From Escherichia phage vB_vPM_PD06: a DNA stretch of 64,000 bases. Numbering within the stretch: the stretch's first letter is position 1; every line of letters begins with the position of its first letter. Below the pieces are notes generated by a model, which saw only the letters and a list, made by a program, of their open reading frames with translations, was not told the origin of the DNA and did not search any database. Where the stretch lies: sequence record NC_052653.1. One strand, 5' to 3'. A program made the position numbers and the translations under genes. Shown piece after piece: positions 1 to 10,505 of this stretch.

Positions 1-465
1 GAACTTAACCGTTATCCTAATGACAAATTCTCTGATGCACTTGCATTAATGGGTATCAGTATTACTGAACACGGCTATGCTGCAAAAGAAGTTAAACTTC
101 TGAAAGTTAACGGTGTAGATCGTACAGCAGATGTTTCGTCAGATACCGATATTGACGGTATGACAGCACAAGGTTTGTTTAGCGGTAATCGTTATGTTGT
201 AGCTGTAGATCATAAGTCAGGAGAAGAGCATCTTCCTGAAATGGAAGGGATTGTTACCGTAGAAGATAAAGATGAAGAAGGTGACTACTACTGGGGTGTA
301 GACCGTATCTTGCTAACGTATGATGAAAAACACATTCGTACAATGGGTGGTGACGGTTATCACTTTATGTTCACCGATGATAAAGGTAACAACATTGAAG
401 TTGTTATTAAAAACAAAGAACGTAAAAACTACACAGAGTATGTGTTTGGTGGTCGTTCTTACTAA
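1..465 (+). CDS. hypothetical protein, 5' end cut by window edge
   Basis: The frame of the 49..465 ORF stays open back to base 1 (ELNRYPNDKFSDALAL-MGIS...), so the start lies upstream. A hairpin plus T-run follows. Confidence 0.7.
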   Translation, partial: ELNRYPNDKFSDALALMGISITEHGYAAKEVKLLKVNGVDRTADVSSDTDIDGMTAQGLFSGNRYVVAVDHKSGEEHLPEMEGIVTVEDKDEEGDYYWGVDRILLTYDEKHIRTMGGDGYHFMFTDDKGNNIEVVIKNKERKNYTEYVFGGRSY

Positions 466-474
466 GTGATAAAA

Positions 475-497
475 GGAGGCGAAAGCCTCCTTTATTT
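475..497 (+). terminator. rho-independent terminator (GAAA tetraloop)
   Basis: ggaggc-gaaa-gcctcc followed by tttattt, directly after the stop at 465. Confidence 0.7.
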
Positions 498-499
498 AT

Positions 500-703
500 A
501 TGGAGGGTATTATGGATCATTATTTTGTTTTTAAAGATAAAGTTGATACAGCAGGTGGTCACGTTGCTAAAAATGATCGTGACATTAAAGAAGTATTAGG
601 AGATCTGATTAACATTTTAGAACAAAAAGAGTTGCTTTTAGATAAGGATATTGCTAGACTTCTTGGTGTGGGGACAAGTGATATACAAAGATTACCATTC
701 TAA
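500..703 (+). CDS. hypothetical protein (67 aa; alternative start at 512)
   Basis: ORF track. GGAGGG lies just upstream of the ATG at 512, so 512 may be the real start. Confidence 0.6.
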   Translation: MEGIMDHYFVFKDKVDTAGGHVAKNDRDIKEVLGDLINILEQKELLLDKDIARLLGVGTSDIQRLPF

Positions 704-714
704 AGGGGAAGAAA

Positions 715-870
715 ATGCTTACAGATGATGAATATAAAGCTATCCAGGAAAAACTAACGGAGCTTGAAACTCTTGCTGCAAATCTTAAAGATCAATCACA
801 TGCTGGAAAGTTACTACGTCAAGAGATTAATAAAATTAAGCAGATGATATTCTTTTGGACGGAGGATTAA
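715..870 (+). CDS. small hypothetical protein (51 aa, helical/coiled-coil-like)
   Basis: Hand-translated ORF below the track cutoff: MLTDDEYKAIQEKLTELETLAANLKDQSHAGKLLRQEINKIKQMIFFWTED. aaagggga lies upstream, and it fills the gap between neighbouring genes. Confidence 0.45.
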   Translation: MLTDDEYKAIQEKLTELETLAANLKDQSHAGKLLRQEINKIKQMIFFWTED

Positions 871-872
871 AA

Positions 873-1529
873 ATGACTGTTAAGCATATTTCTTTTGATG
901 TATGGAATACTCTTATTACTGCTAATCCTTTGTATGCAGAAGAACGCAACAAGGTTATTGCCGAGTATACCTCTTGTTCTGAGGCAGAAGCAGCTACCGT
1001 ATATAAAGAGGTAAAAACTCTCCTGGATTTAAAAGCAGAAAAAGGCGTTTGTGGAACGTCTAGGAATGCTTGGGAAACACTTTCTACTCGTTTGAACATT
1101 GATCTTGATAAGGTGGATGGATTAAAAAGAGACTGTTTAGCAATGTTTATAAAACATCCTCCAATATTGAACCCTGAGCTTTGCAAGAAGTTGGAAGAGC
1201 TAAGTTCAACCTATTCTTTGAGTATTAAGAGCAATACTAATTTTGTACCAGGTAGTTTCTTAGCTGTATATTCTGGCTTAACAAAATTACCATTTGACTT
1301 TATGCATTTTTCTGATGAGTTTTGCTTGTGTAAACCAGATCCTAGGTTTTTTAAACTCTCTTTTGATGAAATGGTAACGTTTGATCTCGCACCAGAGGAG
1401 ATTTTACACGTTGGAGATAGTTTGATCTATGATGGAAAAGCTGTTGACATAGGGATGAAGTTCTGTCATATTATTAATCCAGAAGATTTGTTGGCTAAAC
1501 TTAAAAAAGAGGAACTTATTAATGCGTAA
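873..1529 (+). CDS. HAD-superfamily hydrolase (phosphatase/dehalogenase-like)
   Basis: Motif I FDVWNTL, a CKPDP lysine motif and motif IV GDSLIYDG. GGAGG lies 7 nt before the ATG at 873; the track start at 855 lacks an RBS. The 3' end overlaps the next gene (ATGCGTAA). Confidence 0.8.
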   Translation: MTVKHISFDVWNTLITANPLYAEERNKVIAEYTSCSEAEAATVYKEVKTLLDLKAEKGVCGTSRNAWETLSTRLNIDLDKVDGLKRDCLAMFIKHPPILNPELCKKLEELSSTYSLSIKSNTNFVPGSFLAVYSGLTKLPFDFMHFSDEFCLCKPDPRFFKLSFDEMVTFDLAPEEILHVGDSLIYDGKAVDIGMKFCHIINPEDLLAKLKKEELINA

Positions 1530-2379
1530 TCAAATTCAACATTTTGCTAATACTTTTACTAACCTGAAGGAAGCAAAATTTAACATTGCAGATTATTCCA
1601 AACTAAAGTTTGGTAGTAACCAGGCAGCAAAAAGAATGGGACGCATTCTGGCTGAAAGTTTCTTTTCTAAATATGAAGAACGACTAGTAAATGAAAGTTT
1701 TGTTGTTATTCCATCTCCATACAACTATGTGAAAAATGCAGCTACAGTGTTATCTGAACATTTTGTAGATCACCTCAACTACCTAATCTCTATCAAAGGA
1801 GGTAAAGCAGTAGAGTGGGATATCGTTCATCGTAAAGTGAGTTATATCAATGATTATGGATTTCTTAGCAAAGAAGATCGTAAGGCTTTGATCGATGGTG
1901 ACACTTTCTCTATCAATCGTGATTTCTGGGGTAATAAAACTCTGATTTTCATTGATGATGTTAATATTACAGGAACACACGAAGAAAAACTTATTGAAAT
2001 TTTAGACAAAGAAGGTGTTGAAAACGATACGTTTTTCCTGTACTTTGCAAAGTATGAAGGTACAGAAGCCAACACCGAAGCTGCGCTTAACTTCAACTAT
2101 ATCAATAACTTGGCAGCTTTTATTAAAATGATTAAGCAAGAAACTGATGCTAAATGTTTGGTTCGTCCTATTAAGTATCTAATGAGTCAAAGCGAAGTTG
2201 ATTTTAAAATTGCACTTTCACAACTTCCTTTGTATTATGTAGAACAACTGTTCTTTGGTTGCCTTGCAGAAGGTTACAATAATATTGAAAAATACAAAGA
2301 GAACTTTGATTTCCTGCGTCAATTTTTTGAAAGCAACATTATCAACAAATCTAATGTTAAAGGGGATTATTATGTCTAA
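1522..2379 (+). CDS. type I phosphoribosyltransferase (Ter-associated PRTase-like)
   Basis: PRPP-binding loop LIFIDDVNITGTHEEK. The start overlaps the HAD stop and the stop overlaps the next start. Confidence 0.8.
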   Translation: MRNQIQHFANTFTNLKEAKFNIADYSKLKFGSNQAAKRMGRILAESFFSKYEERLVNESFVVIPSPYNYVKNAATVLSEHFVDHLNYLISIKGGKAVEWDIVHRKVSYINDYGFLSKEDRKALIDGDTFSINRDFWGNKTLIFIDDVNITGTHEEKLIEILDKEGVENDTFFLYFAKYEGTEANTEAALNFNYINNLAAFIKMIKQETDAKCLVRPIKYLMSQSEVDFKIALSQLPLYYVEQLFFGCLAEGYNNIEKYKENFDFLRQFFESNIINKSNVKGDYYV

Positions 2380-3088
2380 TAAAGTGACGACTTTCGGAGA
2401 TCCTATCACCAATATTACAGAAAAAGATTTTGGGCGTGTAGCAACAGATAAAGATGGTGTCTTAAGAATTCGTGTACAAGGCATTACAGCACAGGATGAA
2501 TATGCTGTGTATGTTTCAGGTCTTAATTATATTGATGATCGCATTACACAAAACTTTGCACTGATCGGTGGTGTAGAGAAAATGTACTGGGAAGATGAAA
2601 TTGTAACAAGTTATCCAGCAGGTATCATTGAGGTACACGGTGATCTTTTAGCAGCAGCCGAGAGAGGCGATATAGACGCTATAGCACACTGCTGTAACTG
2701 TTTTTGCACTATGGGTAGTGGTATTGCACCAAAAATTAAAAGCAAGTGGCCTGGTGCGTTTAAAGCAGATTGTGCCACTAAGCGTGGTGATTATAAAAAA
2801 TTAGGTACGTTTACTAAGTATACAGAAAACAATTTGACAATTTATAATTTATATGGACAATATGGTTATAGTCGTCGTGAGGAAGGTAAGCGTGACCTGA
2901 ATTATGAAGCTATCTACAATGCGTTAGATAGTATGGGAGACGATGTTGTATCTTCAGGCGGTAAAATTGTAGGTTTACCAATGCTTGGTTGTGGTTTGGC
3001 TGGAGGTTCTTGGAATATTGTAAAACTTATGATCGAAGAAACTCTAGTGAACAAAGGTTTAAATGTAATTGTTTACAAACTGAAATAA
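2372..3088 (+). CDS. macrodomain protein (ADP-ribose binding/hydrolase family) with ~85 aa N-terminal extension
   Basis: Macro motifs AHCCNCFCTMGSGIAPKIKSKWP and GLPMLGCGLAGGSW. The ATG at 2372 overlaps the PRTase stop (ATGTCTAA). The track start at 2255 lies inside the PRTase gene. Confidence 0.8.
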   Translation: MSNKVTTFGDPITNITEKDFGRVATDKDGVLRIRVQGITAQDEYAVYVSGLNYIDDRITQNFALIGGVEKMYWEDEIVTSYPAGIIEVHGDLLAAAERGDIDAIAHCCNCFCTMGSGIAPKIKSKWPGAFKADCATKRGDYKKLGTFTKYTENNLTIYNLYGQYGYSRREEGKRDLNYEAIYNALDSMGDDVVSSGGKIVGLPMLGCGLAGGSWNIVKLMIEETLVNKGLNVIVYKLK

Positions 3089-3097
3089 GGAGAAAGT

Positions 3098-3304
3098 ATG
3101 GCAGGTGTTTTAGCAGTATTAGGTTGTTTTATTGTTGTATTCTTGATTGTGTTAATCCCTAGTTGGCTACTGCTTTTAGCATACAACTATATGATTGACA
3201 TTATCGGTTTAGACTGGCATCATGTTCCTGTAACGTTTTGGAGTGTAGTCTGTGTGACGTTCATTCTTGCGGTACTTCGTGGTATCTTTCAATCTAACAA
3301 ATAA
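3098..3304 (+). CDS. small membrane protein (2 predicted TM helices)
   Basis: Hydrophobic sequence MAGVLAVLGCFIVVFLIVLIPSWLLLLAY...VVCVTFILAVL. An AGGAGA RBS is present. Confidence 0.65.
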   Translation: MAGVLAVLGCFIVVFLIVLIPSWLLLLAYNYMIDIIGLDWHHVPVTFWSVVCVTFILAVLRGIFQSNK

Positions 3305-3318
3305 GAGAGGATCTTTAT

Positions 3319-3567
3319 ATGCGTAAAGTAAATGTTGAAGTGCTTGAAAAATTTAAAAACACTCGTGATTGTACTATTGGTAAGGTTTATGAGGCTATTC
3401 TCCTTGAAGATGGAGATATTGTTCCTGCCCCGTATCACGCCTTTAATGGTCAGGTTAGCAAAGTGGAAGGTGGTCTTGCTGTTTGCTTTATTGATGATGT
3501 AGGTGATGCTGTAGCTTTCCCTATCATTAACAAAGAAGATAAACTTAAAATTACAGAACTGAACTAG
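3319..3567 (+). CDS. hypothetical protein (82 aa)
   Basis: ORF track; GAGAGG RBS upstream. Confidence 0.65.
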   Translation: MRKVNVEVLEKFKNTRDCTIGKVYEAILLEDGDIVPAPYHAFNGQVSKVEGGLAVCFIDDVGDAVAFPIINKEDKLKITELN

Positions 3568-3595
3568 TTGACTTTCTTTAAAAACAGTTTATAGT
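3568..3595 (+). promoter_or_regulatory. sigma70-like promoter TTGACT-16-TATAGT
   Basis: TTGACT at 3568..3573 and TATAGT at 3590..3595, immediately after the preceding stop codon and upstream of terC. Confidence 0.5.
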
Positions 3596-3607
3596 ATACG
3601 ACATATA

Positions 3608-3626
3608 GCGGAGGATTGTCCTCCGC
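3608..3626 (+). promoter_or_regulatory. 5' leader hairpin upstream of terC
   Basis: gcggagg-attgt-cctccgc (7 bp stem) between the putative promoter and the AGAGGAG RBS. Confidence 0.45.
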
Positions 3627-3644
3627 ATTAAAGAGGAGAAAAGA

Positions 3645-4622
3645 ATGCAACTGGGTTTCCCAATTATTGATGTGGTTGTTTTAGTGGGTATTTTAGTCTT
3701 GTCGATTTGTATTGATTTCTTCGGACACAGAGAAAACAAAGAAATCTCATTTAAATCTGCAATTGGCTGGTCAATTTTCTGGATTGGGGTATCATTAGCC
3801 TACTATGGTTTTGTATACTTCCAACACGGTGCTGATTTCGCGAGCTTGTTCTTGAGTGGGTATGTGTTGGAGAAATCTCTTTCTGTAGATAACTTAGTAG
3901 TATTTGTGGCAGTATTCGCAAGTTTTGGTATTAAAAGCACACACTTGCAACACAAGATTCTACTTTGGGGTATTGCAGGTGCGATTGTCTTCCGAGGTGT
4001 GTTTGTAGCAGTAGGCACTTACTTGTTGAGTTTGGGCTGGTATGTTAATATCTTCTTCGGTGCTGTCATCCTTTTCTGTGCAGCTAAAATGGTATTCGCT
4101 GGAGATAATGACGCAGAAGTTGATTACTCTAAACACTGGGCTACTCGCATTGTTCGTAAGCTGTTCCCTGTATCTGATCAGATGGATGGTGAGAAGTTCT
4201 TCACAATCAAAAATGGTGTTCGTGTAGCAACTCCTGCATTGGTTTGTGTGTTTGTAATGGAAATGGTTGACGTAATCTTTGCAGTAGACTCTGTTCCAGC
4301 AGTAATTGCAGTGACACAAGAACCTCTGCTTGTATTTTCTTCAATGCTGTGTGCAATTTTAGGTCTACGTGCTCTGTTCTTTGTCCTTAGTGTTGCACTG
4401 AAATATTTGGTTCATCTGGAGAAAGCAGTTATCGTAGTCCTGGTATTTGTGGGTGTAAAACTGATGTATCACCCGTTTGCAGAAACTCTGCACGCAAAAG
4501 TGAGTTTCCTGCCAGCACACATTGATCCGACGATCAGTATGTATATTGTGTTAGGTACTCTGGGGCTGGGTGTTATTGCAAGTTTAATCTTCCCTGAAAA
4601 AGAAGACCAGGCTGTTGCTTAA
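3645..4622 (+). CDS. terC: TerC-family integral membrane protein
   Basis: A 325 aa polytopic membrane protein with TerC/Alx-like blocks (EKSLSVDNLVVF, MEMVDVIFAVDSVPAV). Confidence 0.8.
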   Translation: MQLGFPIIDVVVLVGILVLSICIDFFGHRENKEISFKSAIGWSIFWIGVSLAYYGFVYFQHGADFASLFLSGYVLEKSLSVDNLVVFVAVFASFGIKSTHLQHKILLWGIAGAIVFRGVFVAVGTYLLSLGWYVNIFFGAVILFCAAKMVFAGDNDAEVDYSKHWATRIVRKLFPVSDQMDGEKFFTIKNGVRVATPALVCVFVMEMVDVIFAVDSVPAVIAVTQEPLLVFSSMLCAILGLRALFFVLSVALKYLVHLEKAVIVVLVFVGVKLMYHPFAETLHAKVSFLPAHIDPTISMYIVLGTLGLGVIASLIFPEKEDQAVA

Positions 4623-4628
4623 TTCATT

Positions 4629-4650
4629 AAGCCCCTTCGGGGGCTTTGTT
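4629..4650 (+). terminator. rho-independent terminator (TTCG tetraloop)
   Basis: aagcccc-ttcg-ggggctt followed by tgtt. Confidence 0.65.
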
Positions 4651-4661
4651 GAGGTGATCTG

Positions 4662-4868
4662 ATGGTGGTTTTACGTGTTCTTTGGATTCTGTTTGAAAAT
4701 ATTTGTTTTGCTTTAGGGTTATTTTGTTTGATTTTTATCTTGACAACATACATTGATAACCATACAATTACTATCAACAGGAACGGAGAACAGATGTATT
4801 GTTTCTCTAGGGATTTTAAAAATTGTGTCGAGACTTTAAATGAGAGGGTTACAAATGAAAAACATTAA
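4662..4868 (+). CDS. small membrane protein (68 aa)
   Basis: GAGGTGA RBS. Hydrophobic N-terminal half (VVLRVLWILFENICFALGLFCLIFILTTY). Confidence 0.55.
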   Translation: MVVLRVLWILFENICFALGLFCLIFILTTYIDNHTITINRNGEQMYCFSRDFKNCVETLNERVTNEKH

Positions 4869-5445
4869 ATCTTTTATTGTTGCAGTTGTTTTAGGTAGTG
4901 CATTGCTGGTAGGTTGTGATGATTCTGAAAATGTACAAAACCAACGTTACCAACAAACACCAAATCAGATGGTAGATGAACAATATGTAAATCAACCTGC
5001 ACCTCAAGTTGTTCAAGCAGCACCTGCACAACCTTCAACAGTTGTTGTGCAAGGAGGCGGTAGTGGTTCTTCTGGTGTAGGTGAATTTGCTACAGGTATG
5101 CTTCTTGGTCATATGTTGAGTGGTAATAGTGGCGGTGGTGGTTATAGAGATGGCGGTAGCAATACAACAATTATTAATAACAACGCTGCTCCTACAACTA
5201 ACAGTAAATCATATACAACACAAAAGCATAGTTTTTATGATAAACAAGGGAATACATATACAACAACTAAACAAAACACAATTAAGCAGCAAAGTGTACA
5301 AACGTATTCACGCCCATCAACAACAAAAGTGAATAGTGATTACTCTGCTCGTAAGTCTTACTCAAGCCCTATTAGCTCTTATAGTAAGTCTTCGAAAAGT
5401 TATTCTTCGTCGAAACGTAGTTTTAGTAGCTCACGTCGTCGTTAA
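4855..5445 (+). CDS. lipoprotein, Q/N/S/T-rich low-complexity body
   Basis: MKNIKSFIVAVVLGSALLVGC has a signal peptide and an LVGC lipobox. GAGAGGG lies before the ATG at 4855; the track start at 4840 is less likely. Confidence 0.7.
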   Translation: MKNIKSFIVAVVLGSALLVGCDDSENVQNQRYQQTPNQMVDEQYVNQPAPQVVQAAPAQPSTVVVQGGGSGSSGVGEFATGMLLGHMLSGNSGGGGYRDGGSNTTIINNNAAPTTNSKSYTTQKHSFYDKQGNTYTTTKQNTIKQQSVQTYSRPSTTKVNSDYSARKSYSSPISSYSKSSKSYSSSKRSFSSSRRR

Positions 5446-5480
5446 TAATTTAATACAGATTAAATAAGAAGGAGAAACAG

Positions 5481-6332
5481 ATGAAACTAGAAGTTGGTAA
5501 AGTGTATCGCCTGGAAGGTTGGATCTTTAATCAAGAAATTCTTGAGAAGAATAAAGATGGTTTTGAGTTTGTTGGTACTACCAAAGAAAGTATGCACGAT
5601 GACGAATACTGTAAATTCGTTGGTAAAAATACAGGTCAAGAACAATTTTGCTTTAAAAGCGCAATCGGTGATTATGCTTCTGTAATGCCAACGCCAGAAA
5701 AAACTTCGAAACAATATACTGTCTTTGGTGTAAAACTTGAAGAGCTTGTAGAACACCCACGTTTTGAAGAGTTTAAGGTTGCTGCAATGTGCAAGCATTC
5801 TGAAATTAAGATACATAATTTGTTTGATTTAGAAGATCGGTTTGATATCTTTATGTATGATCGCAGGGGAAAGCATTTTGATGCAACGACTTCAAAATTT
5901 GCTGCAACAGAGGATATTAAAATCCTTGATGTTGATACCTTTCTTGAGAGTGTATCGTTTGTATTCATTCCTAAATACAAAAAACGTAGTGATCATAAAC
6001 GTGTGAAAGGAACTCCTCGTAAAAAACGTACTGTAAACAAAGCAACTTTGCACTTCACTTCTGGTGATAAATATACTCTCAAAGGGTTTGAAAGTGTTTT
6101 GTATGATGCGGGAACGGGTAATATCAAGTTTATCATTAAGGCAACCTACAAAGGTACGGTATTGCACGAAGAGGCTGTTACACTACCTGTATTCGATATC
6201 TCTCGTGTTGAGGTACGGGGTGTTAAAGAGTCCTTCGATCTGGATTTCTTAACCACTAATGCTACTGGTTATGTTAACCTGGAAGCAGATGGAGCATTTA
6301 TTACTACAAATTATTTAGATATGTTTGTTTAA
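5481..6332 (+). CDS. hypothetical protein (283 aa)
   Basis: ORF track; AAGGAGA RBS. No motif recognised. Confidence 0.7.
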   Translation: MKLEVGKVYRLEGWIFNQEILEKNKDGFEFVGTTKESMHDDEYCKFVGKNTGQEQFCFKSAIGDYASVMPTPEKTSKQYTVFGVKLEELVEHPRFEEFKVAAMCKHSEIKIHNLFDLEDRFDIFMYDRRGKHFDATTSKFAATEDIKILDVDTFLESVSFVFIPKYKKRSDHKRVKGTPRKKRTVNKATLHFTSGDKYTLKGFESVLYDAGTGNIKFIIKATYKGTVLHEEAVTLPVFDISRVEVRGVKESFDLDFLTTNATGYVNLEADGAFITTNYLDMFV

Positions 6333-6400
6333 TACTTAATTTGTGTTATGATGGTGGTACAGAGGTATCACCATCTACTAAAGAATATGGAGGAAATTGA

Positions 6401-7504
6401 ATGTCCAGTCCTTTTATCAGTGCCGTAAAAAGCAAACCGTCTGAAACGAGTGTATTCACGGCAACAACAGAAAAAAGTAAGTCTTTGTTTGCTCCAAGTG
6501 CTATGGATGCAAGCCCTGTATATGCCCCTGCTGTTGCACGACCTGTACAAATGCTGCCTCCAATGTCTCGTGAAGAGATTGAACAGGTTGGTGCTGATGC
6601 AGGACTTACTCTTCGTAACCTTAATGCGGAAGTGCTTAAACACCAGCGTTCATCTCAGGGAGATGAAATGAGTGAGCGTTTAACCGCACTTATTAAGCAA
6701 GCAAAGCAACTTGATCCTAATTCTATTAAACAATCTAAAGGTTTAGGTAAGCTAGTTAAGAAAGTATTAGGTATGAAAGAAGATTTGTTTGGAGAATTTG
6801 ACACCATCAATAATCGTATTGAAGGTTTGGTAAAGACACTCCAAACAGACTTGAAAAAAGAAGAAGATTCTTTACGATATCTGCAACGTTTAGAAGAGGC
6901 TATTGCAAAATATGCTCTTAGCTTAAACAGGGATATAGAGCTTCTAACAGCTACTTATGAAAAAGAAGAAGTTCACCTTAATACACTACCTGAAAATGAA
7001 GTAGAAGAGCGTCAACGTACTCGTGATACTATGGATCTGCTTGAAATTCGTATTGCAGACCTGAAAGCCTTGCGTTTACTGTGTGTTCAGATGGGGCCAC
7101 GTGTACAAAGTATGCAGAAAGTATCTGCAAGTTTGATGCGATCAGCCCGTAATATTGTGAATAATGTTATTCCTGCTTACTCTGCAAACTTTTCTATGTA
7201 TATTGAAAGTCTACGCCAGAAGAAAGCAGCCGATACACAGAACAATGTACTGAATGAATTTAATGCTGCTATTGCAATGGGTAGTGATCTGGCTGCACAA
7301 AACCAAATTGAAGCTACACAACTTGCTAATCGTCAAGTATTGGATATTGAGACATTACGTCGCGATCAAGAAAACTTAGTTAAAATGTTGGAAGAAACTA
7401 ATCGGATCAACACTGAAGCCCGTGCTGCTCGTATTGATTACATTCAAGAAGTGCAATCTCTTGAAGATGGTATGATTCAAACTGTTAAACGTGGTCTACT
7501 TTAA
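6401..7504 (+). CDS. telA: TelA/KlaA-like toxic-anion-resistance family protein
   Basis: A 367 aa helical protein with TelA-like stretches (LGKLVKKVLGMKEDLFGEFDTINNRIEGL..., LQRLEEAIAKYALSL). GGAGGA RBS. Confidence 0.7.
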   Translation: MSSPFISAVKSKPSETSVFTATTEKSKSLFAPSAMDASPVYAPAVARPVQMLPPMSREEIEQVGADAGLTLRNLNAEVLKHQRSSQGDEMSERLTALIKQAKQLDPNSIKQSKGLGKLVKKVLGMKEDLFGEFDTINNRIEGLVKTLQTDLKKEEDSLRYLQRLEEAIAKYALSLNRDIELLTATYEKEEVHLNTLPENEVEERQRTRDTMDLLEIRIADLKALRLLCVQMGPRVQSMQKVSASLMRSARNIVNNVIPAYSANFSMYIESLRQKKAADTQNNVLNEFNAAIAMGSDLAAQNQIEATQLANRQVLDIETLRRDQENLVKMLEETNRINTEARAARIDYIQEVQSLEDGMIQTVKRGLL

Positions 7505-7517
7505 GGAGAAATATATT

Positions 7518-7724
7518 ATGAATATTAAAATTTACAAACTGTCTGGTTCTATGATCGCTGTCCAGTACGACAATGAAGATCGTTATGTTCTCCTCCAGGA
7601 TGCTTGGTTAGATGATCCTAATGTATTTACTGTCCTGCGAGAACTACGTTCTGTCTATACCTATTCTTCTAAAGATGGTTTTGATAGTTCAACGATGGAT
7701 TTGGTAAAAGAGGAGAATGTGTAA
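7518..7724 (+). CDS. hypothetical protein (68 aa)
   Basis: The ATG at 7518 is preceded by AAGGAGA. The track start at 7491 overlaps telA. Confidence 0.6.
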   Translation: MNIKIYKLSGSMIAVQYDNEDRYVLLQDAWLDDPNVFTVLRELRSVYTYSSKDGFDSSTMDLVKEENV

Positions 7725-7927
7725 TGAATAAAGATATTCACTTAACTCGTGAAGAATTACAAACCATTATGGAAGATGCTTTCATTGATGGTTGGAAACA
7801 ATGTCAAGAGTCAAATTGGTATGATGCCGAAAACTTTTTGTATTATCATATGACTGCACCTGTAGACGAGCCAACACATTCTGAAACAACTTTGGCCTTA
7901 ATTGATCTTAAGGCTGGTGTATTTTAG
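7724..7927 (+). CDS. hypothetical protein (67 aa)
   Basis: The start overlaps the upstream stop (TAATG). Confidence 0.6.
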   Translation: MNKDIHLTREELQTIMEDAFIDGWKQCQESNWYDAENFLYYHMTAPVDEPTHSETTLALIDLKAGVF

Positions 7928-8019
7928 TTGTAACTATCTCTTTAAACGAGTTACAAAAGATCACCAGAGAGGCTTTCTATTTAGGCTGGAGGGCAGGTAA
8001 AGGAGAAGACAGTGCTTAA
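7912..8019 (+). pseudogene. start-less fragment paralogous to the N-terminus of the 7724..7927 product
   Basis: An open frame without ATG/GTG/TTG encodes ...ISLNELQKITREAFYLGWRAGKGEDSA. Compare LTREELQTIMEDAFIDGWKQ at the start of the upstream gene. Confidence 0.3.
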
Positions 8020-8281
8020 ATTTAATATCAAAGACGATAAATCAGATGAACCTAAATGTTTTGGAGAACTTGACGCAGGTGATACATTCGTATATTATGT
8101 TGCGTATCAAGATTCTGGTTTAGATACGTTCAGAAACTTAGTGTTTATTAAAGTTAATACAAACCAAGCAATGTGTCTGAACGGTTCACAAAGAGGTCAA
8201 CTTAGCTGTATTTCATATGATACAGAAATGGTAGAAGTGGATTTAGAAGTTACTAACATTACACTCAGAAAGGAGAAATAA
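8012..8281 (+). CDS. hypothetical protein (89 aa), GTG start
   Basis: AAGGAGAAG RBS 5 nt before the GTG. Confidence 0.6.
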   Translation: MLKFNIKDDKSDEPKCFGELDAGDTFVYYVAYQDSGLDTFRNLVFIKVNTNQAMCLNGSQRGQLSCISYDTEMVEVDLEVTNITLRKEK

Positions 8282-8282
8282 T

Positions 8283-9077
8283 ATGTCCAATAAAATCAGT
8301 CTTAAAAAACGTCAAGAAACTCTTACTGTATCTCTGCGTAAGAAAAAGATTAACGATGTTGTTCTTCGTGTCGGTAGCGCCTTAGATATTTCGGGTAGTA
8401 TGTGTGAGCTGTATCGTGATGGCACTGTTAGTGATTTTGTAGGTAAACTGCTGCCGTTTGGTATGAAGTTTGATGACAATGCACAGATTGACATGTGGGC
8501 TTTCAATAGTTCTTCTTTTGAACTGCCTCCTGCAACGGCTGATGTGTATGATGATTATGTCGGCTCTTGCATGTCTAATGTTTGCATCAACGGTGGTACT
8601 GCTTATGCTCCAGTAATGCAAGAGATCTATGATACATACTTCGGTAGTGTACCTATGAAAAATATTACACGCGAAGTCGTTGAGTATGAAGAAGTCCCGG
8701 CTAAGGGTTTCCTTGCTAAACTAACTGGTAAAAAAGAACTTGTAGAAGTAACACGTACTATTGTAGAACAGGTTGTAGATACTGATGCACAAGTTGATCG
8801 TACTCCTGCAATGATTTTCTTCCAAACTGACGGGGAAAACATGGATACTTCAGCAGTACGTAGCTTACTGAACAAACACCGCAATACGCCTGTTTACTGG
8901 TTTATGGTTGGTGTAGGTAATGCAAACTTTAAATTCCTGAAAGACTTGGCAAAAGAGTACGATAATGTTGATTTTATCGGTATTGCAGATTTGTCCTTGT
9001 CTGATGAAGAACTTTACGATAAACTGTTATCCGAAGAGTTTGGTGAGTGGGTTAAAAAATTCGGAGCAAAAGCGTAA
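8283..9077 (+). CDS. von Willebrand factor A domain protein, TerF/TerY-type
   Basis: MIDAS motif DISGSM. The N-terminus ISLKKRQETLTVSL resembles TerD-family N-termini. A later FFQTDGEN block is present. Confidence 0.75.
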   Translation: MSNKISLKKRQETLTVSLRKKKINDVVLRVGSALDISGSMCELYRDGTVSDFVGKLLPFGMKFDDNAQIDMWAFNSSSFELPPATADVYDDYVGSCMSNVCINGGTAYAPVMQEIYDTYFGSVPMKNITREVVEYEEVPAKGFLAKLTGKKELVEVTRTIVEQVVDTDAQVDRTPAMIFFQTDGENMDTSAVRSLLNKHRNTPVYWFMVGVGNANFKFLKDLAKEYDNVDFIGIADLSLSDEELYDKLLSEEFGEWVKKFGAKA

Positions 9078-9084
9078 AAAACGC

Positions 9085-9112
9085 TTGACTTTGTAGAAAA
9101 GATTAGTAAAAT
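9085..9112 (+). promoter_or_regulatory. sigma70-like promoter TTGACT-16-TAAAAT
   Basis: TTGACT at 9085..9090 and TAAAAT at 9107..9112, in the 72 nt gap before terD. Confidence 0.55.
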
Positions 9113-9149
9113 AGACAACGTAAATTAACAACAAAGGAGATAATAAATT

Positions 9150-9746
9150 ATGACTCAGAAAATTTCCCTGAAAAAAGGTTCTAGCGAAAAAGTTTCTCTG
9201 AAAAAGATCGCACCAGCACTGAAACGCATTCGTCTGGAATTCTCTTGGAAATCTAACGAAAAACTGGATCTGGATGTTAGTGCTCTGATTTGCCGACACA
9301 ATGCATCTGGTCTGCCGGAACTGTTGTCTCCTCGTCACCTGGTGTGCTACGCGCAGAAATTTGATCCTGAACGTTCTACTTTTGCAGGTGAAGATGTTCG
9401 TGATGGTGTAGGACAGATGGAGCAGATTGATGTTACACTGGATAATATCTCTGCTGAAGCACAGGAAATTGCATTCGTAATTACTATTGATGACGAAACG
9501 GGTAAGAAACGCCTTGGTCACGCTACCGAAGGTTTCCTTAAAATCTTCGATGATGAACGTAATGTTGAACTGCTGGACTTTGACTTCTTGGCTCCAGAAC
9601 TTGCAGGTAACACCATTTGCCACGTTGCCTCCCTGGTGCGAGAAGATAGCGAATGGAAACTGAAAGCGTATGGTGTAGGTAAAGCTGGGCTTGACATTTA
9701 CGATGTAGTTAAAGCGTTTGGCGCTGGCGACGATTGGTTCGAGTAA
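9150..9746 (+). CDS. terD: TerD-family protein
   Basis: ISLKKGSSEKVSLKK..., LDLDVSALI, GEDVRDGVG..EQIDVTL and AFVITIDD match the TerD pattern. Codons are CTG-rich and host-like, unlike the neighbours. Confidence 0.85.
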   Translation: MTQKISLKKGSSEKVSLKKIAPALKRIRLEFSWKSNEKLDLDVSALICRHNASGLPELLSPRHLVCYAQKFDPERSTFAGEDVRDGVGQMEQIDVTLDNISAEAQEIAFVITIDDETGKKRLGHATEGFLKIFDDERNVELLDFDFLAPELAGNTICHVASLVREDSEWKLKAYGVGKAGLDIYDVVKAFGAGDDWFE

Positions 9747-9767
9747 TACGTCAAGTAATAAATCATA

Positions 9768-9790
9768 GCGCCCTTCGGGGCGCATATTTT
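9768..9790 (+). terminator. rho-independent terminator (TTCG tetraloop)
   Basis: gcgccc-ttcg-gggcgc followed by atatttta. Confidence 0.7.
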
Positions 9791-9810
9791 AAATAAAAGA
9801 GGAGAAAACA

Positions 9811-10413
9811 ATGGGTATTACTTTAGAAGGTCAAAAACTTATTCGTAGCGGCAATTTTCTTGTAGATATTGACAACAATGAAGATTATGCTTTAGAAGTT
9901 AGTGATGTGCTGTTTGATGCTTTGCAGTCTGGTTTCAATTTTGAAGTTTATGAAGTAATCCGTGGAACTAAACTCAGAGAAACCCTTGGATCATCTAGTG
10001 ATGTTTATCCGGCAATCTGGCAATATTTCGGGTTGATGGAGGGTAAGACATATCTTACTGATAGTTATTCTGAAGATGTTGTTTATCTTGATATGGAAGA
10101 GTTTCGTCGTCTGTTCAAAAGTGAAGAAAATGAAGAAGAGGGTGAACTTTTTGAAGGAATTACTCTCGAAGGTAATGTTGAAATTGTGTACAAAGCAGGA
10201 AAAACATTCCACCTACGCGAAAACGGTAAAGCAAAAGTTGATTTTGTAAACAAGACAGTGACAACTGAACATAATTATCTTAAAGATGGTCAACCAGCTT
10301 TTGAGCGTGTAAAAATTAAATTTAAAGTGTTGTCTGCACTAGTTACGGATCAAGAACGTATTGATTTTGTAGAAGATGGTGTAGTAACTCATACAAAGGT
10401 TTACAATATCTAA
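9811..10413 (+). CDS. hypothetical protein (200 aa)
   Basis: ORF track; AGAGGAGAA RBS. Confidence 0.7.
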   Translation: MGITLEGQKLIRSGNFLVDIDNNEDYALEVSDVLFDALQSGFNFEVYEVIRGTKLRETLGSSSDVYPAIWQYFGLMEGKTYLTDSYSEDVVYLDMEEFRRLFKSEENEEEGELFEGITLEGNVEIVYKAGKTFHLRENGKAKVDFVNKTVTTEHNYLKDGQPAFERVKIKFKVLSALVTDQERIDFVEDGVVTHTKVYNI

Positions 10414-10423
10414 CAGAGTGTAA

Positions 10424-10442
10424 GAGGGGGATAATCCCCCTC
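10424..10442 (+). terminator. GC hairpin, possible terminator (no clear T-run)
   Basis: gaggggg-ataa-tccccctc right after the stop codon. Confidence 0.4.
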
Positions 10443-10445
10443 CAC

Positions 10446-10474
10446 TTGCAAAATAGCCTCTTCTGTGTTACAAT
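10446..10474 (+). promoter_or_regulatory. extended -10 promoter TTGCAA-17-TGtTACAAT
   Basis: TTGCAA at 10446..10451 and TACAAT at 10469..10474, preceded by tgt. Confidence 0.55.
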
Positions 10475-10505
10475 AAAAGTTCGTTTAACAAAATAGGAGG
10501 CAAGT

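What the first reader, a model, noticed from the sequence alone, without database searches (positions are those of the whole stretch)
1..9790. Ter-type stress-response gene set on a virulent-looking phage backbone
Seven genes sit on the + strand within about 10 kb. They are a HAD hydrolase (873..1529), a PRTase (1522..2379), a macrodomain protein (2372..3088), TerC (3645..4622), a TelA-like protein (6401..7504), a TerF-type vWA protein with DISGSM MIDAS (8283..9077) and TerD (9150..9746). About ten small or unassignable ORFs lie between them. This is the domain repertoire that comparative genomics (Anantharaman, Iyer and Aravind, 2012) linked to bacterial Ter stress-response loci, including a PRTase/HAD arm predicted to make a nucleoside-like metabolite. 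Here the set lies next to replication genes of a phage with no integrase or repressor in 64 kb. The function of such a module during lytic infection is not established. Possibilities include membrane or ion homeostasis, exclusion of competitors, or neutralising a host abortive-infection response. TerB, ATP-grasp and kinase/phosphatase partners are not visible, and the truncated ORF at 1..465 suggests the block may continue upstream.
Basis: partly seen in the sequence, partly recalled or inferred. Interest (0 to 1): 0.75.

Follow-up and report, generated by a model that had tools for sequence, protein, structure and literature searches.

The report
Phage-borne Ter membrane-stress gene block
A lytic phi92-like E. 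coli phage carries a conserved cluster of bacterial-type "tellurite-resistance" (Ter) genes plus a separate DarG-like enzyme gene; the genes are real but already annotated and discussed in the literature, and their role in infection has not been tested.

Summary
All seven domain calls hold at the stated coordinates: HAD, PRTase_3, Macro, TerC/Alx, TelA, vWA-TerF and TerD.

The window is 99% identical to published phi92-like E. coli myophages (Justusliebigvirus). The block is syntenic across the subfamily. TerD, TelA and TerC are as conserved between genera as DNA polymerase and primase.

The interpretation needs three corrections.
1. The macrodomain is probably not a Ter part. It is a DarG/SCO6735-class orphan macrodomain, 31% identical to T4 Tk.4/AdfM (a proven anti-DarTG2 factor), and homologues occur in about 3,000 phage records.
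2. The block does not continue upstream. ORF 1..465 is the end of an AAA ATPase, followed by a terminator-like hairpin, and that gene is missing at this position in Phapecoctavirus.
3. The set is modular. TelA, vWA, TerC and TerD form a compact cassette in unrelated phages. The HAD-PRTase_3 pair co-occurs with it, sometimes 86 kb away, and is embedded in Ter operons in Bacteroidota.

Phage Ter systems, including PRTase/HAD arms, were already described (Iyer et al. 2021 and others), with superinfection exclusion proposed. Function remains untested. Novelty: already known. Interest is low to moderate.

The parts
1..465 (+). C-terminal 138+ codons of a 386-aa AAA ATPase. It is the upstream neighbour and not part of the block.
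   Evidence: The full-length gene in KMB37 (L001:11305-12465) matches Pfam AAA at 1.2e-6 and phrog_2376 'ATPase' at 3.7e-104. It has no homologue at this position in ESCO5.
472..493 (+). Terminator-like hairpin that marks the left boundary of the block.
   Evidence: AAAGGAGGC-GAAA-GCCTCCTTT followed by ATTTAT. This is a consensus match only.
500..703 (+). Small acidic ORF (67 aa), conserved in Phapecoctavirus, function unknown.
   Evidence: phrog_17780 at 8e-39. It has an ESCO5 homologue at 5.5e-18 in the same position.
715..870 (+). Small ORF (51 aa), specific to Justusliebigvirus.
   Evidence: phrog_24275. No ESCO5 hit.
873..1529 (+). HAD-superfamily hydrolase, first gene of the HAD-PRTase cassette. 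Motif I reads FDVWNTL, so the Asp+2 position is Trp.
   Evidence: Pfam PF00702 at 1.8e-5. PDB 2om6 at 8e-9 shares the FDVWNTL motif. D9, W11, K154, D182 and D187 are invariant in 5 distant phages.
1522..2379 (+). Type-I phosphoribosyltransferase of the Ter-associated PRTase_3 family. It overlaps the HAD stop by 8 nt.
   Evidence: PF15610 at 1.1e-41. The PRPP loop IFIDDVNITGTHE is invariant in 52 homologues. The AF2 model has pLDDT 91.8. Foldseek places it nearest HGPRT, ComF, PyrR and PurF, E 2e-6.
2372..3088 (+). Orphan DarG/SCO6735-class macrodomain protein with an ~85-aa N-terminal extension. It is probably a DNA/protein de-ADP-ribosylase acting in counter-defence.
   Evidence: Pfam Macro at 2.8e-7. 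PDB matches: 5e3b SCO6735 at 1.8e-15, TARG1 at 2.6e-10, DarG at 6.7e-4. PADLOC DarG at 4.9e-14. NCBIfam antitoxin_DarG at 2e-13, macro part only. T4 Tk.4 at 31% identity, E 6e-18.
3098..3304 (+). 68-aa protein with two hydrophobic segments (small membrane protein), conserved in Phapecoctavirus.
   Evidence: Hydropathy analysis. phrog_16065. ESCO5 homologue at 1.1e-23.
3319..3567 (+). 82-aa ORF, function unknown, lineage-specific.
   Evidence: phrog_17459. No ESCO5 hit.
3568..3595 (+). Sigma-70-like site in the gap before terC.
   Evidence: TTGACT-16-TATAGT, 10 of 12. Consensus match only.
3645..4622 (+). TerC/Alx-family integral membrane metal-homeostasis protein.
   Evidence: PF03741 at 1.2e-38. 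TIGR03718 scores 322.8 bits, above the 246.4 cut-off. Multiple hydrophobic segments. No yybP-ykoY riboswitch upstream.
4662..4868 (+). 68-aa ORF with an N-terminal hydrophobic segment, conserved in Phapecoctavirus.
4840..5445 (+). Predicted lipoprotein. It has an LVGC lipobox followed by Asp-Asp, a basic low-complexity Ser/Gly-rich body and pI 9.9.
   Evidence: Translation. Hydropathy and pI. phrog_21570. A promoter-like site at 4740-4768 scores 11 of 12.
5481..6332 (+). 283-aa soluble protein of unknown function, restricted to this phage group.
   Evidence: No Pfam hit. Only 2 hits in the indexed search. Only 17 clusters in the exhaustive search of 1.84 billion proteins.
6401..7504 (+). TelA-family protein.
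   Evidence: PF05816 at 5.5e-34. phrog_5890. 78.5% identical in ESCO5. The AF2 model is all long helices but low confidence, pLDDT 59.
7518..7927 (+). Two small acidic ORFs (7518..7724 and 7724..7927), function unknown.
   Evidence: phrog_26823 and phrog_14200.
7922..7923 (.). Junction of a 468-bp deletion that removes about 156 codons of a 187-aa gene conserved in relatives.
   Evidence: Alignment with KMB37 and PaulScherrer. None of the 12 best records shares the deletion.
8012..8281 (+). 89-aa acidic ORF that ends 1 nt before the vWA gene. ESCO5 has two paralogues, one before vWA and one before TerD.
   Evidence: phrog_11278. ESCO5 hits at 2.1e-34 and 1.4e-11.
8283..9077 (+). TerF-type vWA protein with a complete MIDAS motif.
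   Evidence: PF10138 at 1.5e-38. DISGS, T and D are visible in the translation. Homologues occur in 213 phage records.
9085..9112 (+). Sigma-70-like site in the gap before terD.
   Evidence: TTGACT-16-TAAAAT. Consensus match only.
9150..9746 (+). TerD-domain protein with a partly degenerate acid-rich loop.
   Evidence: PF02342 at 5.1e-28. PDB 2kxt at 8.6e-15. The loop reads GEDVRDGVGQME where both solved TerDs have GDNxTGEGxGDDE.
9768..9783 (+). Terminator-like hairpin that marks the right boundary of the block.
   Evidence: GCGCCC-TTCG-GGGCGC followed by ATATTTT.

Best explanation
Window 500-9790 is the Stephanstirmvirinae version of a phage-borne Ter system, with one unrelated counter-defence gene embedded in it.

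Shown:
- A four-part membrane-directed core is present. It comprises a TerC/Alx-type inner-membrane metal transporter, TelA, a MIDAS-bearing TerF-type vWA protein and a TerD-domain protein.
- A two-enzyme arm is present. It comprises a HAD hydrolase and a PRTase_3 whose PRPP-binding loop is intact.
- All lie on the strand of the early/middle replication genes, between two terminator-like hairpins.

Inferred (arm chemistry):
- The PRTase joins an unidentified base to PRPP, and the HAD enzyme removes the 5'-phosphate. This would give a nucleoside-like small molecule, as in the Anantharaman-Iyer-Aravind model.
- TerD and/or the vWA protein read that molecule or a divalent-cation signal.
- Acting with TelA under the membrane and TerC in it, they reset the infected cell's inner-membrane and cation state.

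Inferred (biological role, probability about 0.35-0.4):
- The module most likely protects the infected cell's envelope against insults from outside. These include DNA entry by superinfecting phages and colicins, the phenotypes that the plasmid R478 ter cluster gives.
- It probably acts with the co-located lipoprotein and small membrane proteins.

The macrodomain gene (2372-3088) is a separate item. It is an orphan DarG/SCO6735-type ADP-ribosyl hydrolase, homologous to T4 AdfM, and most likely removes DarT-type ADP-ribose from phage DNA (probability about 0.6).

Identity of the parts: about 0.95. The overall confidence figure given here reflects the mechanism.
For: Identity of the parts.

One inherited, selected unit:
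- The whole block is syntenic in Phapecoctavirus ESCO5.
- Inter-genus identity is TerD 81%, TelA 78.5% and TerC 72%. The baselines are DNA polymerase 83% and primase-helicase 71%.

Core quartet is a recurrent cassette:
- It appears as TelA-vWA-TerC-TerD, in that order, in three unrelated phage families. These are phiPsa374, Brevundimonas Papperlapapp and Rhizobium RHph_TM61.

HAD-PRTase is tied to the quartet:
- In Bacteroidota the pair sits inside TerD/TelA/TerC operons.
- It lies within 8 kb of vWA-TerF, TerD and TelA on a 143-kb phage contig.
- It is in the same genome but 86 kb away in RHph_TM61.
- Counts by host genus run in parallel.

Enzymes look active:
- The PRPP loop is invariant in 52 homologues.
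- The HAD nucleophile Asp, the Lys and the GDxxxD motif are invariant.

Envelope theme:
- The block holds two small TM proteins, a lipoprotein with a lipobox and TerC.
- A secreted SleB-like hydrolase and four glycosyltransferases lie just downstream.

Precedent for the role:
- The R478 ter cluster gives phage inhibition and colicin resistance (Whelan 1995, as cited in PMC8386662).
- Iyer et al. 2021 proposed the same role for phage Ter systems.
- TerC proteins are metal (Mn) transporters acting at the Sec translocon (PMC10550928).

Macrodomain:
-.
- It keeps the Asn, Gln and Gly residues that mutagenesis showed SCO6735 needs.
Against: - No experiment on any phage Ter gene was found, and no transcriptome for this phage group.
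- The product of HAD-PRTase_3 is unknown. The fold search gives only the generic type-I PRTase core, with TM 0.3-0.45.
- The HAD lacks the Asp+2 general acid typical of phosphatases (motif DVWNT). Its nearest named families include haloacid dehalogenases, so the phosphatase step is not assured.
- The TerD acid loop has lost three acidic positions, so Ca2+ binding may differ.
- About ten unrelated ORFs and several promoter-like sites are interspersed among the Ter genes. In other phages the arm and the quartet are unlinked. A single co-regulated machine is therefore not shown.
- T4-type phages achieve superinfection exclusion with one or two small proteins. A six-gene system conserved as strongly as the replication genes may point to a more central physiological role.
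- The macrodomain gene overlaps the PRTase stop. Macro genes also lie within 3-8 kb of Ter or HAD-PRTase genes in phiPsa374 and XaC1, so a functional link to the arm is not excluded.
Confidence: 0.45

Rival explanations
1. Metal-homeostasis auxiliary genes with no role in conflict. TerC exports or delivers Mn2+ or another divalent cation across the inner membrane. TerD and the MIDAS vWA protein buffer or sense Ca2+/Mg2+. Together they keep cation levels right for phage enzymes, or for exported phage proteins, during infection.
For: - TerC passes the curated TerC/Alx 'metal homeostasis' cut-off.
- TerC proteins metalate exoenzymes with Mn at the Sec translocon and have minor Mn efflux activity (PMC10550928).
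- K. pneumoniae terC affects zinc resistance (title of PMC12054061).
- The block lies next to ribonucleotide reductase genes upstream and a signal-peptide SleB-like hydrolase downstream. The same hydrolase family sits next to TelA on contig L035.
- Some phages carry TerC alone (Cronobacter, Proteus, Pectobacterium and Vibrio phages).
Against: - This does not explain the nucleoside-forming HAD-PRTase arm or TelA.
- No Mn riboswitch precedes terC.
- The phage TerD acid loop is degenerate.
- SleB-type hydrolases are not known metalloenzymes (my own knowledge, not tested here).
Confidence: 0.2
2. Counter-defence against the host. The module neutralises abortive-infection responses. One route would be stabilising the membrane against pore-forming or depolarising Abi effectors. 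Another would be the HAD-PRTase-macro trio acting on NAD+/ADP-ribose-derived molecules.
For: - The macrodomain is DarG-like.
- In phiPsa374 a macro homologue, NamPT and a PRPP-synthetase-like gene lie 3-7 kb from the Ter quartet in an accessory region near the genome end.
- A NUDIX gene follows HAD-PRTase in RHph_TM61.
- NUDIX and macro genes lie 6-8 kb downstream in XaC1-like phages.
Against: - No block protein except the macrodomain matches any PADLOC defence or antitoxin model.
- The specific idea that PRTase_3 feeds NAD+ synthesis failed. The neighbouring 'NMNAT/NUDIX' gene is NUDIX only, and PRTase_3 is a type-I PRTase unrelated to NamPT.
- Bacterial Ter operons holding the same HAD-PRTase pair have no macro gene.
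Confidence: 0.15
3. Not one system. The genes are independent accessory genes that happen to sit in the same early-region hotspot. HAD-PRTase would be a nucleotide-salvage pair, TerC a stand-alone transporter, and so on.
For: - In RHph_TM61 the arm and the quartet are 86 kb apart. In CcrColossus the PRTase and the vWA gene are 26 kb apart.
- Rhizobium and Ensifer genomes hold HAD-PRTase without Ter genes within 10 kb.
- phiPsa374 has the quartet without PRTase_3.
- TelA or TerC occur alone in some phages.
- Here the Ter genes are separated by about ten unrelated ORFs and promoter-like sites.
Against: - The same families recur together in at least four unrelated phage lineages and in Bacteroidota operons. 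Each family is present in under 0.5% of phage records.
- The quartet keeps its gene order across three phage families.
- Conservation equals that of replication genes.
Confidence: 0.12
4. Host-benefit genes. The block confers tellurite or xenobiotic resistance on the host during pseudolysogeny or a carrier state.
For: Iyer et al. 2021 raise this as an additional possibility. The Ter families are named for tellurite resistance.
Against: - The phage is virulent, with no integrase or repressor in 64 kb.
- TerB, TerA/Z/E and the other components of terZABCDEF are missing.
- The authors of the phiPsa374 paper judge tellurite resistance unlikely for the incomplete phage set.
Confidence: 0.05

Closest known systems
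Phage-encoded Ter clusters already described: Acinetobacter phage ME3 and Caulobacter jumbo phages (Iyer et al. 2021, PMC7824862), Klebsiella phiKp34 (PMC8386662), Pseudomonas phiPsa374 (PMC9796965), and phi92 gp172/173/178 (PMC4690881)
   Same: They hold the same families (TerC, TerD, TerF-type vWA, TelA), in some cases with PRTase plus HAD. They occur in virulent phages, and function is unknown. The window is 97.7-99.1% identical to the listed published phi92-like genomes that carry the same genes.
   Different: Here the quartet is not compact. TerC is separated from TelA-vWA-TerD, and about ten lineage-specific ORFs are interspersed. The HAD-PRTase arm is physically linked to the quartet, which is not so in Rhizobium or Caulobacter phages. 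A DarG-like macrodomain gene is wedged between the arm and terC.
Bacterial Ter stress-response systems: terZABCDEF of IncHI2 plasmid R478 and E. coli O157, and compact Bacteroidota operons such as Mucilaginibacter L024
   Same: They hold TerD, TerC, TelA and the HAD-PRTase_3 pair. The Mucilaginibacter operon TerD-TerD-HAD-PRTase_3-TerD-TerD-TelA-x-TerC has nearly the same composition. R478 ter confers phage inhibition and colicin resistance (cited).
   Different: The phage has a single TerD, against 4 in L024 and several in terZABCDEF. It has no TerB, no TerA/Z/E paralogues and no ATP-grasp or further PRTases. Its vWA is a stand-alone TerF C-terminal domain. The TerD acid loop is partly degenerate.
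T4 Tk.4 / AdfM and the DarG-SCO6735-TARG1 (ALC1-like) macrodomain class
   Same: The window's macrodomain is 31% identical to T4 Tk.4 (E 6e-18). Its best solved relatives are SCO6735, BT1257, TARG1 and DarG. It keeps the Asn, Gln and Gly residues needed by SCO6735. Like AdfM, it is an orphan macrodomain without the DarT-binding C-terminal half of DarG.
   Different: It has an ~85-aa N-terminal extension that is absent from T4 Tk.4 and from the Phapecoctavirus orthologue. Its gene is translationally overlapped with a PRTase gene. Its activity against DarT is untested.
CobT/CobC-type logic (a PRTase makes a riboside 5'-phosphate and a phosphatase releases the riboside). This is an analogy for how the arm may work, drawn from general biochemical knowledge.
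   Same: A PRPP-type phosphoribosyl transfer is followed by dephosphorylation, and the two enzymes are encoded by adjacent, overlapping genes.
   Different: There is no sequence relationship. The base substrate is unknown. The HAD enzyme lacks the usual Asp+2 acid/base residue.
TerY-P anti-phage defence system (vWA TerY plus PP2C phosphatase plus Ser/Thr kinase). Its existence is recalled from the defence-system literature.
   Same: It is a Ter-associated vWA protein used in phage-bacterium conflict.
   Different: No PADLOC model of that system matches the window's vWA, and no kinase or PP2C phosphatase is present.

Membership tests
Ter stress-response system (core hub) | TerD-domain protein | tested here: met
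   PF02342 at 5.1e-28. PDB 2kxt at 8.6e-15 and 3ibz at 3.3e-13.
Ter stress-response system (core hub) | TerC-family integral membrane protein | tested here: met
   PF03741 at 1.2e-38. TIGR03718 scores 322.8 bits, above the 246.4 cut-off. Multiple hydrophobic segments.
Ter stress-response system (core hub) | TelA-family protein | tested here: met
   PF05816 at 5.5e-34, covering 13-330 of the 332 profile positions.
Ter stress-response system (core hub) | TerF/TerY-type vWA protein with MIDAS | tested here: met
   PF10138 at 1.5e-38. D35-x-S37-x-S39, T (NGGTAY) and D (QTDGEN) were read in the translation.
Ter stress-response system (core hub) | TerB-domain protein | tested here: not met
   No TerB hit among the 19 annotated + strand ORFs of 500-10413 that were scanned with Pfam. 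The seven domain proteins and three unassigned ORFs were scanned at E<=0.01 and six small ORFs at E<=1. ORF 4662..4868 was checked with PHROGs only.
Ter stress-response system (core hub) | Acid-rich Ca2+-binding loop of TerD (GDNxTGEGxGDDE in the solved TerDs). That these residues bind Ca2+ is recalled from the TerD structure paper and was not re-read here. | tested here: inconclusive
   The loop reads GEDVRDGVGQME. Three acidic positions are replaced by V, Q and M, while the upstream DLD is kept.
Ter stress-response system (metabolite arm) | PRTase_3-family phosphoribosyltransferase with an intact PRPP loop, paired with a HAD hydrolase | tested here: met
   PF15610 at 1.1e-41. The DDVxITG loop is invariant. 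The HAD gene lies directly upstream in 26 of 27 related loci.
Ter stress-response system (metabolite arm) | ATP-grasp, additional PRTases and TIM-barrel partners of the full biosynthetic cluster | tested here: not met
   None of these domains was found in the scanned ORFs of the block.
Ter stress-response system (metabolite arm) | Conserved neighbourhood link between the arm and TerD/TelA/TerC in distant genomes | tested here: met
   Bacteroidota loci L023-L029. Phage contig L035. Genome-level co-occurrence in RHph_TM61.
Ter stress-response system | Phenotype: resistance to tellurite, colicins or phages | not testable with these tools
   This needs expression or deletion experiments.
DarG-like / AdfM-like anti-DarT macrodomain | Macrodomain of the ALC1/TARG1/DarG class | tested here: met
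   PDB matches: SCO6735 at 1.8e-15, BT1257 at 3.4e-15, TARG1 at 2.6e-10, DarG at 6.7e-4. PADLOC DarG at 4.9e-14.
DarG-like / AdfM-like anti-DarT macrodomain | Catalytic residues | tested here: met
   The SCO6735-type set is present: Asn (AHCCNCF), Gln (NLYGQYG) and Gly (LGCGLAGG). The Lys of DarG/TARG1 is replaced by Gln, as in SCO6735 and T4 Tk.4.
DarG-like / AdfM-like anti-DarT macrodomain | C-terminal DarT-binding domain of the bona fide DarG antitoxin | tested here: not met
   Only positions 4-144 of 329 (PADLOC) and 3-147 of 338 (NCBIfam, 50 bits against a 250 cut-off) are matched. It is therefore an orphan macrodomain, not a DarG.
DarG-like / AdfM-like anti-DarT macrodomain | Homology to the experimentally validated phage factor T4 Tk.4 (AdfM) | tested here: met
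   BLASTP gives 31% identity over 139 aa, E 6e-18. The AdfM function is described in bioRxiv 10.1101/2025.11.20.689424.
DarG-like / AdfM-like anti-DarT macrodomain | Removes DarT-made ADP-ribose from DNA and rescues plating on DarTG hosts | not testable with these tools
   This needs biochemistry and plaque assays.
Phage NAD+ reconstitution pathways (NARP1/2/3) | NamPT/Namat plus Adps, NamPT plus NMNAT, or PnuC plus NadR | tested here: not met
   PRTase_3 has a type-I PRTase fold nearest HGPRT and ComF. No NMNAT, NamPT, PnuC or NadR domain was found in the block. NARP3 is PnuC plus NadR. The Rhizobium-phage neighbour is NUDIX only.
TerY-P defence system | vWA (TerY) plus PP2C phosphatase plus Ser/Thr kinase triad | tested here: not met
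   No PADLOC hit for the vWA, and no kinase or phosphatase genes are present.

The most novel reading that the evidence does not exclude
The HAD-PRTase_3 cassette makes a dedicated nucleoside-like signal inside the infected cell. That signal switches on a TelA-vWA-TerC-TerD membrane machine. This would be a phage-run small-molecule signalling pathway controlling envelope state, for exclusion of competitors or resistance to membrane-targeting abortive infection. The adjacent DarG-like macrodomain might be tied to the same nucleotide chemistry. If shown, it would give the first mechanistic assignment for Ter systems, whose function in bacteria has been unresolved for about three decades, using a minimal version in a tractable E. 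coli phage.
Probability: 0.2. Interest if true: 0.7.

Novelty: already known. Interest (0 to 1): 0.3.

Why it matters
Ter genes are widespread in bacteria, plasmids and large virulent phages, yet what they do mechanistically is still unknown.

This block is a pared-down Ter system of six parts. It is conserved as strongly as the replication genes in a group of easily grown E. coli phages (phi92 and BASEL Bas60-62). That makes it a convenient place to find the PRTase/HAD product and to test the superinfection-exclusion and membrane-protection ideas.

The practical value of this re-analysis is threefold:
- It separates the DarG-like macrodomain, a likely anti-DarT factor with a simple test, from the Ter genes.
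- It defines the block's boundaries.
- It shows which parts travel together across phages and bacteria.

It is not a new discovery. The genes are annotated in public records, and the idea has been in the literature since 2012-2021.

Tried and rejected
1. NAD+-synthesis idea. I asked whether PRTase_3 supplies NMN to a neighbouring NadM in Rhizobium phage RHph_TM61. The 'NMNAT/NUDIX' gene is NUDIX only. No NamPT exists in the genome. PRTase_3 is a type-I fold unrelated to NamPT. NARP3 is PnuC plus NadR and is unrelated. Rejected.

2. Upstream continuation of the block. The upstream gene is an AAA ATPase, followed by a terminator-like hairpin, and it is missing at this position in ESCO5. Rejected.

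3. TelA fold. The AF2 model has pLDDT 59 and is all long helices. It is too poor to fold-search, so I did not. There is no PDB sequence relative for TelA, the vWA protein or PRTase_3.

4. PRTase substrate. Foldseek gives only the generic PRTase core (HGPRT, ComF, PyrR, PurF at TM 0.3-0.45), so no substrate can be assigned.

5. Mn2+ riboswitch before terC. Rfam finds nothing in 1-12000.

6. Shared regulatory repeats. None were found beyond similar ribosome-binding sites.

7. Hidden Ter parts among the unassigned ORFs.
- Pfam at E<=1 and PHROGs give only 'unknown function' families.
- The 283-aa ORF has 17 related clusters in 1.84 billion proteins.
- The 321-aa unknown in the Mucilaginibacter Ter operon matches no phage ORF.
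- The small ORF before the vWA gene is unrelated to phiPsa374 gp14.

8. DUF2828/DUF7788 protein next to HAD-PRTase in XaC1-like phages. I recalled it as vWA-like. BLASTP against the window's vWA shows nothing, so this stays unverified.

9. Deletion junction.

10. Anantharaman et al. 2012 (PMC4104200) is not in the library. Its content is cited only through later papers.

Full report
**What the window is.** The first 10 kb match 90 phage records. The 25 best-matching records are 97.7-99.1% identical over the whole query. The best are Enterobacteria phage ECGD1, vB-Eco-KMB37 and PHB05, all phi92-like myophages of genus Justusliebigvirus, subfamily Stephanstirmvirinae. In the annotated relative, the rest of the 64 kb holds a SleB-like hydrolase, four glycosyltransferases, primase-helicase and DNA polymerase. 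Then, on the other strand, come tail, head and terminase genes and tRNAs. No integrase or repressor is annotated. The 'virulent-looking backbone' description is correct.

**Checking the observation.**
- HAD: PF00702, 1.8e-5. This is just under Pfam's gathering score, but PDB 2om6 matches at 8e-9 and NCBIfam HAD-IA families also hit.
- PRTase_3: 1.1e-41.
- Macro: 2.8e-7.
- TerC: 1.2e-38, and above the curated cut-off of the TerC/Alx family.
- TelA: 5.5e-34.
- vWA-TerF-like: 1.5e-38, with a complete DxSxS...T...D MIDAS.
- TerD: 5.1e-28, and 8.6e-15 to the solved K. pneumoniae TerD.

None of the other ORFs scanned in the block shows TerB, ATP-grasp, kinase or PP2C domains. Each Ter family is present in only 145-243 of 50,697 phage records, so this clustering is not chance.

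**Boundaries.**
- ORF 1..465 is the C-terminal end of a 386-aa AAA ATPase (phrog_2376). In relatives, anaerobic ribonucleotide reductase genes precede it.
- A strong hairpin plus T-run follows the ATPase gene at 472-493. A second lies just after terD at 9768-9783.
- In Phapecoctavirus ESCO5 the ATPase is missing at this position, yet the block from the small ORF at 500 through terD is syntenic.
- The 200-aa ORF after the second hairpin (9811..10413) has no ESCO5 counterpart.
- The block is therefore about 500-9790, and it does not continue upstream.
- Sigma-70-like sites fall in the gaps before terC, before the lipoprotein gene and before terD. Promoter-like matches overall are no more frequent than in shuffled sequence, so these are leads only.

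**Conservation.** I compared the window with ESCO5, which belongs to a different genus.
- Ter and arm proteins: TerD 81%, TelA 78.5%, TerC 72%, vWA 67%, PRTase 64%, HAD 48% identical.
- Baselines: DNA polymerase 83% and primase-helicase 71%.

The Ter proteins have therefore been inherited and kept under selection like core genes. The small 2-TM protein (3098..3304), the TM ORF at 4662, the lipoprotein at 4840 and the ORFs at 500, 7724 and 8012 are also shared. The ORFs at 715, 3319 and 7518 are not.

**Modularity.** The core four genes form a compact cassette in the same order, TelA-vWA-TerC-TerD, in three unrelated phage families.
- Pseudomonas phiPsa374.
- Brevundimonas Papperlapapp.
- Rhizobium RHph_TM61. 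Its TerC position is held by a DUF475/TerC-like protein.

The HAD-then-PRTase_3 pair is a second unit.
- The two genes are adjacent or overlapping in 26 of 27 related loci. The pair is adjacent again on further metagenomic contigs.
- It is split once, by a zinc-finger ORF that looks like a selfish insertion.
- In Bacteroidota the pair lies inside Ter operons. Mucilaginibacter reads TerD-TerD-HAD-PRTase_3-TerD-TerD-TelA-(321 aa)-TerC-PgpA.
- In RHph_TM61 it is 86 kb from the quartet but in the same genome.
- In Rhizobium and Ensifer genomes it stands alone within 10 kb.
- phiPsa374 has the quartet without it.
- Counts by host genus for PRTase and vWA run in parallel: Rhizobium 11 and 10, Brevundimonas 7 and 7.

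I read this as two modules that are functionally tied but physically separable.

**The enzymes.**
- The PRTase keeps the type-I PRPP loop (IFIDDVNITGTHE). D145, D146, I149, T150, G151, H153 and E154 are invariant in 52 homologues of 44-81% identity.
- A confident model (pLDDT 91.8) has the PRTase core plus a family-specific C-terminal helical domain. Its nearest solved folds are 6-oxopurine PRTases, ComF, PyrR and PurF, all at TM 0.3-0.45. The substrate cannot be named.
- The HAD keeps the nucleophile Asp, the Lys and the GDxxxD motif. The Asp+2 position is an invariant Trp (FDVWNTL), exactly as in P. horikoshii PH0253 (2om6). Among named families it scores with haloacid dehalogenase type II and YjjG nucleotidase, none above cut-off.
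- The 'phosphatase' step of the proposed nucleoside pathway is therefore an inference, and a slightly shaky one.

**The macrodomain is a different story.**
- Its best solved relatives are SCO6735, BT1257, human TARG1 and DarG.
- It matches the PADLOC and NCBIfam DarG antitoxin models only over their macrodomain part.
- It is 31% identical (E 6e-18) to T4 Tk.4.
- SCO6735 removes DarT-made ADP-ribose from thymidine in DNA and needs Asn27, Gln85 and Gly128 (PMC9411070). The window's protein has all three.
- T4 Tk.4 was recently shown by transposon profiling and a clean knockout to be the anti-DarTG2 factor AdfM (bioRxiv 10.1101/2025.11.20.689424). Other phages carry DarG-like or NADAR antitoxin mimics.
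- Homologues occur in 2,978 phage records of many families, against 154 with the PRTase. Bacterial Ter operons with the same HAD-PRTase pair have none.
- The most likely reading is an orphan antitoxin-type DNA de-ADP-ribosylase, not a Ter part.

Two things keep a link open. The macro gene overlaps the PRTase stop codon. Macro genes also lie 8 kb from HAD-PRTase in XaC1, and 2.6 kb from the quartet in phiPsa374, next to NamPT and a PRPP-synthetase-like gene. I could not decide whether that is a functional tie or just shared residence in accessory islands.

**How the block most likely works.**

Shown:
- The parts listed above are present.
- The catalytic and metal-binding motifs are intact, except for a TerD acid loop that has lost three acidic positions.
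- There is an envelope theme: TerC, two small TM proteins, and a lipoprotein with an LVGC lipobox followed by Asp. In E. coli, Asp at +2 keeps lipoproteins in the inner membrane (established knowledge).
- The block is co-oriented with the replication genes.

From the literature:
- TerC proteins are LysE-superfamily metal (Mn) transporters that work with the Sec translocon. There is no evidence they move tellurite (PMC10550928).
- The R478 ter cluster gives phage inhibition and colicin resistance (cited).
- Iyer et al. 2021 describe Ter systems in jumbo 'and certain other related smaller tailed phages'. They include PRTase/HAD arms and propose competition with superinfecting phages.

Inferred:
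- HAD-PRTase makes a nucleoside-like ligand.
- TerD and vWA sense it or divalent cations.
- TelA and TerC alter the membrane and cation state.
- The net effect protects the infected cell's envelope from superinfecting phages and colicins.

I put about 0.35-0.4 on that role, 0.2 on plain metal homeostasis, 0.15 on counter-defence against the host's own abortive systems, and about 0.1 on the genes being unrelated neighbours.

**Novelty and score.** The genes are annotated as tellurite-resistance, TerC, vWA, phosphoribosyltransferase, macrodomain and HAD in many GenBank records. phi92 gp172, gp173 and gp178 were flagged as Ter proteins in 2015. The quartet in virulent phages has been discussed repeatedly with 'function unknown'. 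The PRTase/HAD-containing phage Ter system and its likely role were set out in 2021. No experimental study of a phage Ter gene, and no transcriptome for this phage group, turned up. The finding is real and correctly read in most respects. It is already known, and it points to an old open question rather than opening a new one.

Noticed in passing
window 7922/7923 (compare L001:19924-20487): A clean 468-bp (156-codon) deletion removes most of a 187-aa gene (phrog_14928, function unknown). That gene is conserved in Justusliebigvirus and Phapecoctavirus. None of the 12 best-matching public genomes has the deletion, so the gene appears dispensable for this phage.
   Followed up: yes
window 17482-20802: The DNA polymerase reading frame is 1107 aa, against 859 aa in KMB37. 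The size matches the intein-containing polymerase annotated in PaulScherrer. ESCO5 also has a long form (3333 bp, annotated DNA polymerase I). The window's polymerase probably carries an intein.
   Followed up: partly
GenBank records MG065639, MG065645, MG065656, MG065689, MG065650, MG065655: Records named 'Campylobacter phage' (A150, A145, C3, A110a) are about 98% identical in DNA to E. coli phi92-like phages. Two others (B15, C2) carry protein matches like those of E. coli phages. The host label looks doubtful, for example through contamination or a mix-up.
   Followed up: no
window 3645-4622 versus Phapecoctavirus terC: TerC of some Phapecoctavirus phages (Mt1B1_P17, REC, phiWec179) is 94-95% identical to the window's TerC. 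Other members of that genus are 71-72% identical. This suggests recent exchange of terC between the two genera.
   Followed up: no
window 873-1529: The HAD enzyme and all its phage and bacterial orthologues have Trp at the Asp+2 position of motif I (FDVWNTL), shared with the archaeal protein PH0253 (PDB 2om6). Typical HAD phosphatases have Asp there, so the chemistry may not be simple phosphate removal.
   Followed up: partly
window 4840-5445: This is a predicted inner-membrane lipoprotein. It has an LVGC lipobox followed by Asp-Asp, a basic Ser/Gly/Gln-rich low-complexity body and pI 9.9. It is preceded by the best sigma-70-like site in the block (4740-4768, 11 of 12). Many phage exclusion proteins are lipoproteins.
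   Followed up: partly
window 8012-8281; L003:11350-11691 and 12707-12982: The 89-aa acidic ORF that abuts the vWA gene has two paralogues in ESCO5, one directly before vWA and one directly before terD. It might be a small partner protein of the Ter parts.
   Followed up: partly
window 10506-11015; L035:4940-5431: A SleB-type cell-wall hydrolase with a signal peptide lies just after the block. The same family sits next to TelA on an unrelated 143-kb phage contig. It is annotated as the endolysin in ESCO5.
   Followed up: no
L006:9941-11527; L033:8967-10562: In XaC1-like jumbo phages the gene right after HAD-PRTase_3 encodes a 530-aa DUF2828/DUF7788 protein. I recall this family as vWA-containing, which would echo the PRTase-vWA link, but BLASTP against the window's vWA shows nothing.
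   Followed up: partly
L038:1-4346 (phiPsa374): NamPT, a PRPP-synthetase-like gene and a macrodomain gene lie 3-7 kb from the Ter quartet, in an accessory region within 15 kb of the genome end of phiPsa374. It looks like a counter-defence island that includes a possible NAD+ reconstitution pair.
   Followed up: no
window 11764-15200: Four consecutive glycosyltransferase genes sit between the block and the primase gene. The BASEL paper calls this a putative dTDP glycosylation machinery, yet reports these phages as very sensitive to restriction systems. Their target (DNA or surface glycans) is open.
   Followed up: no
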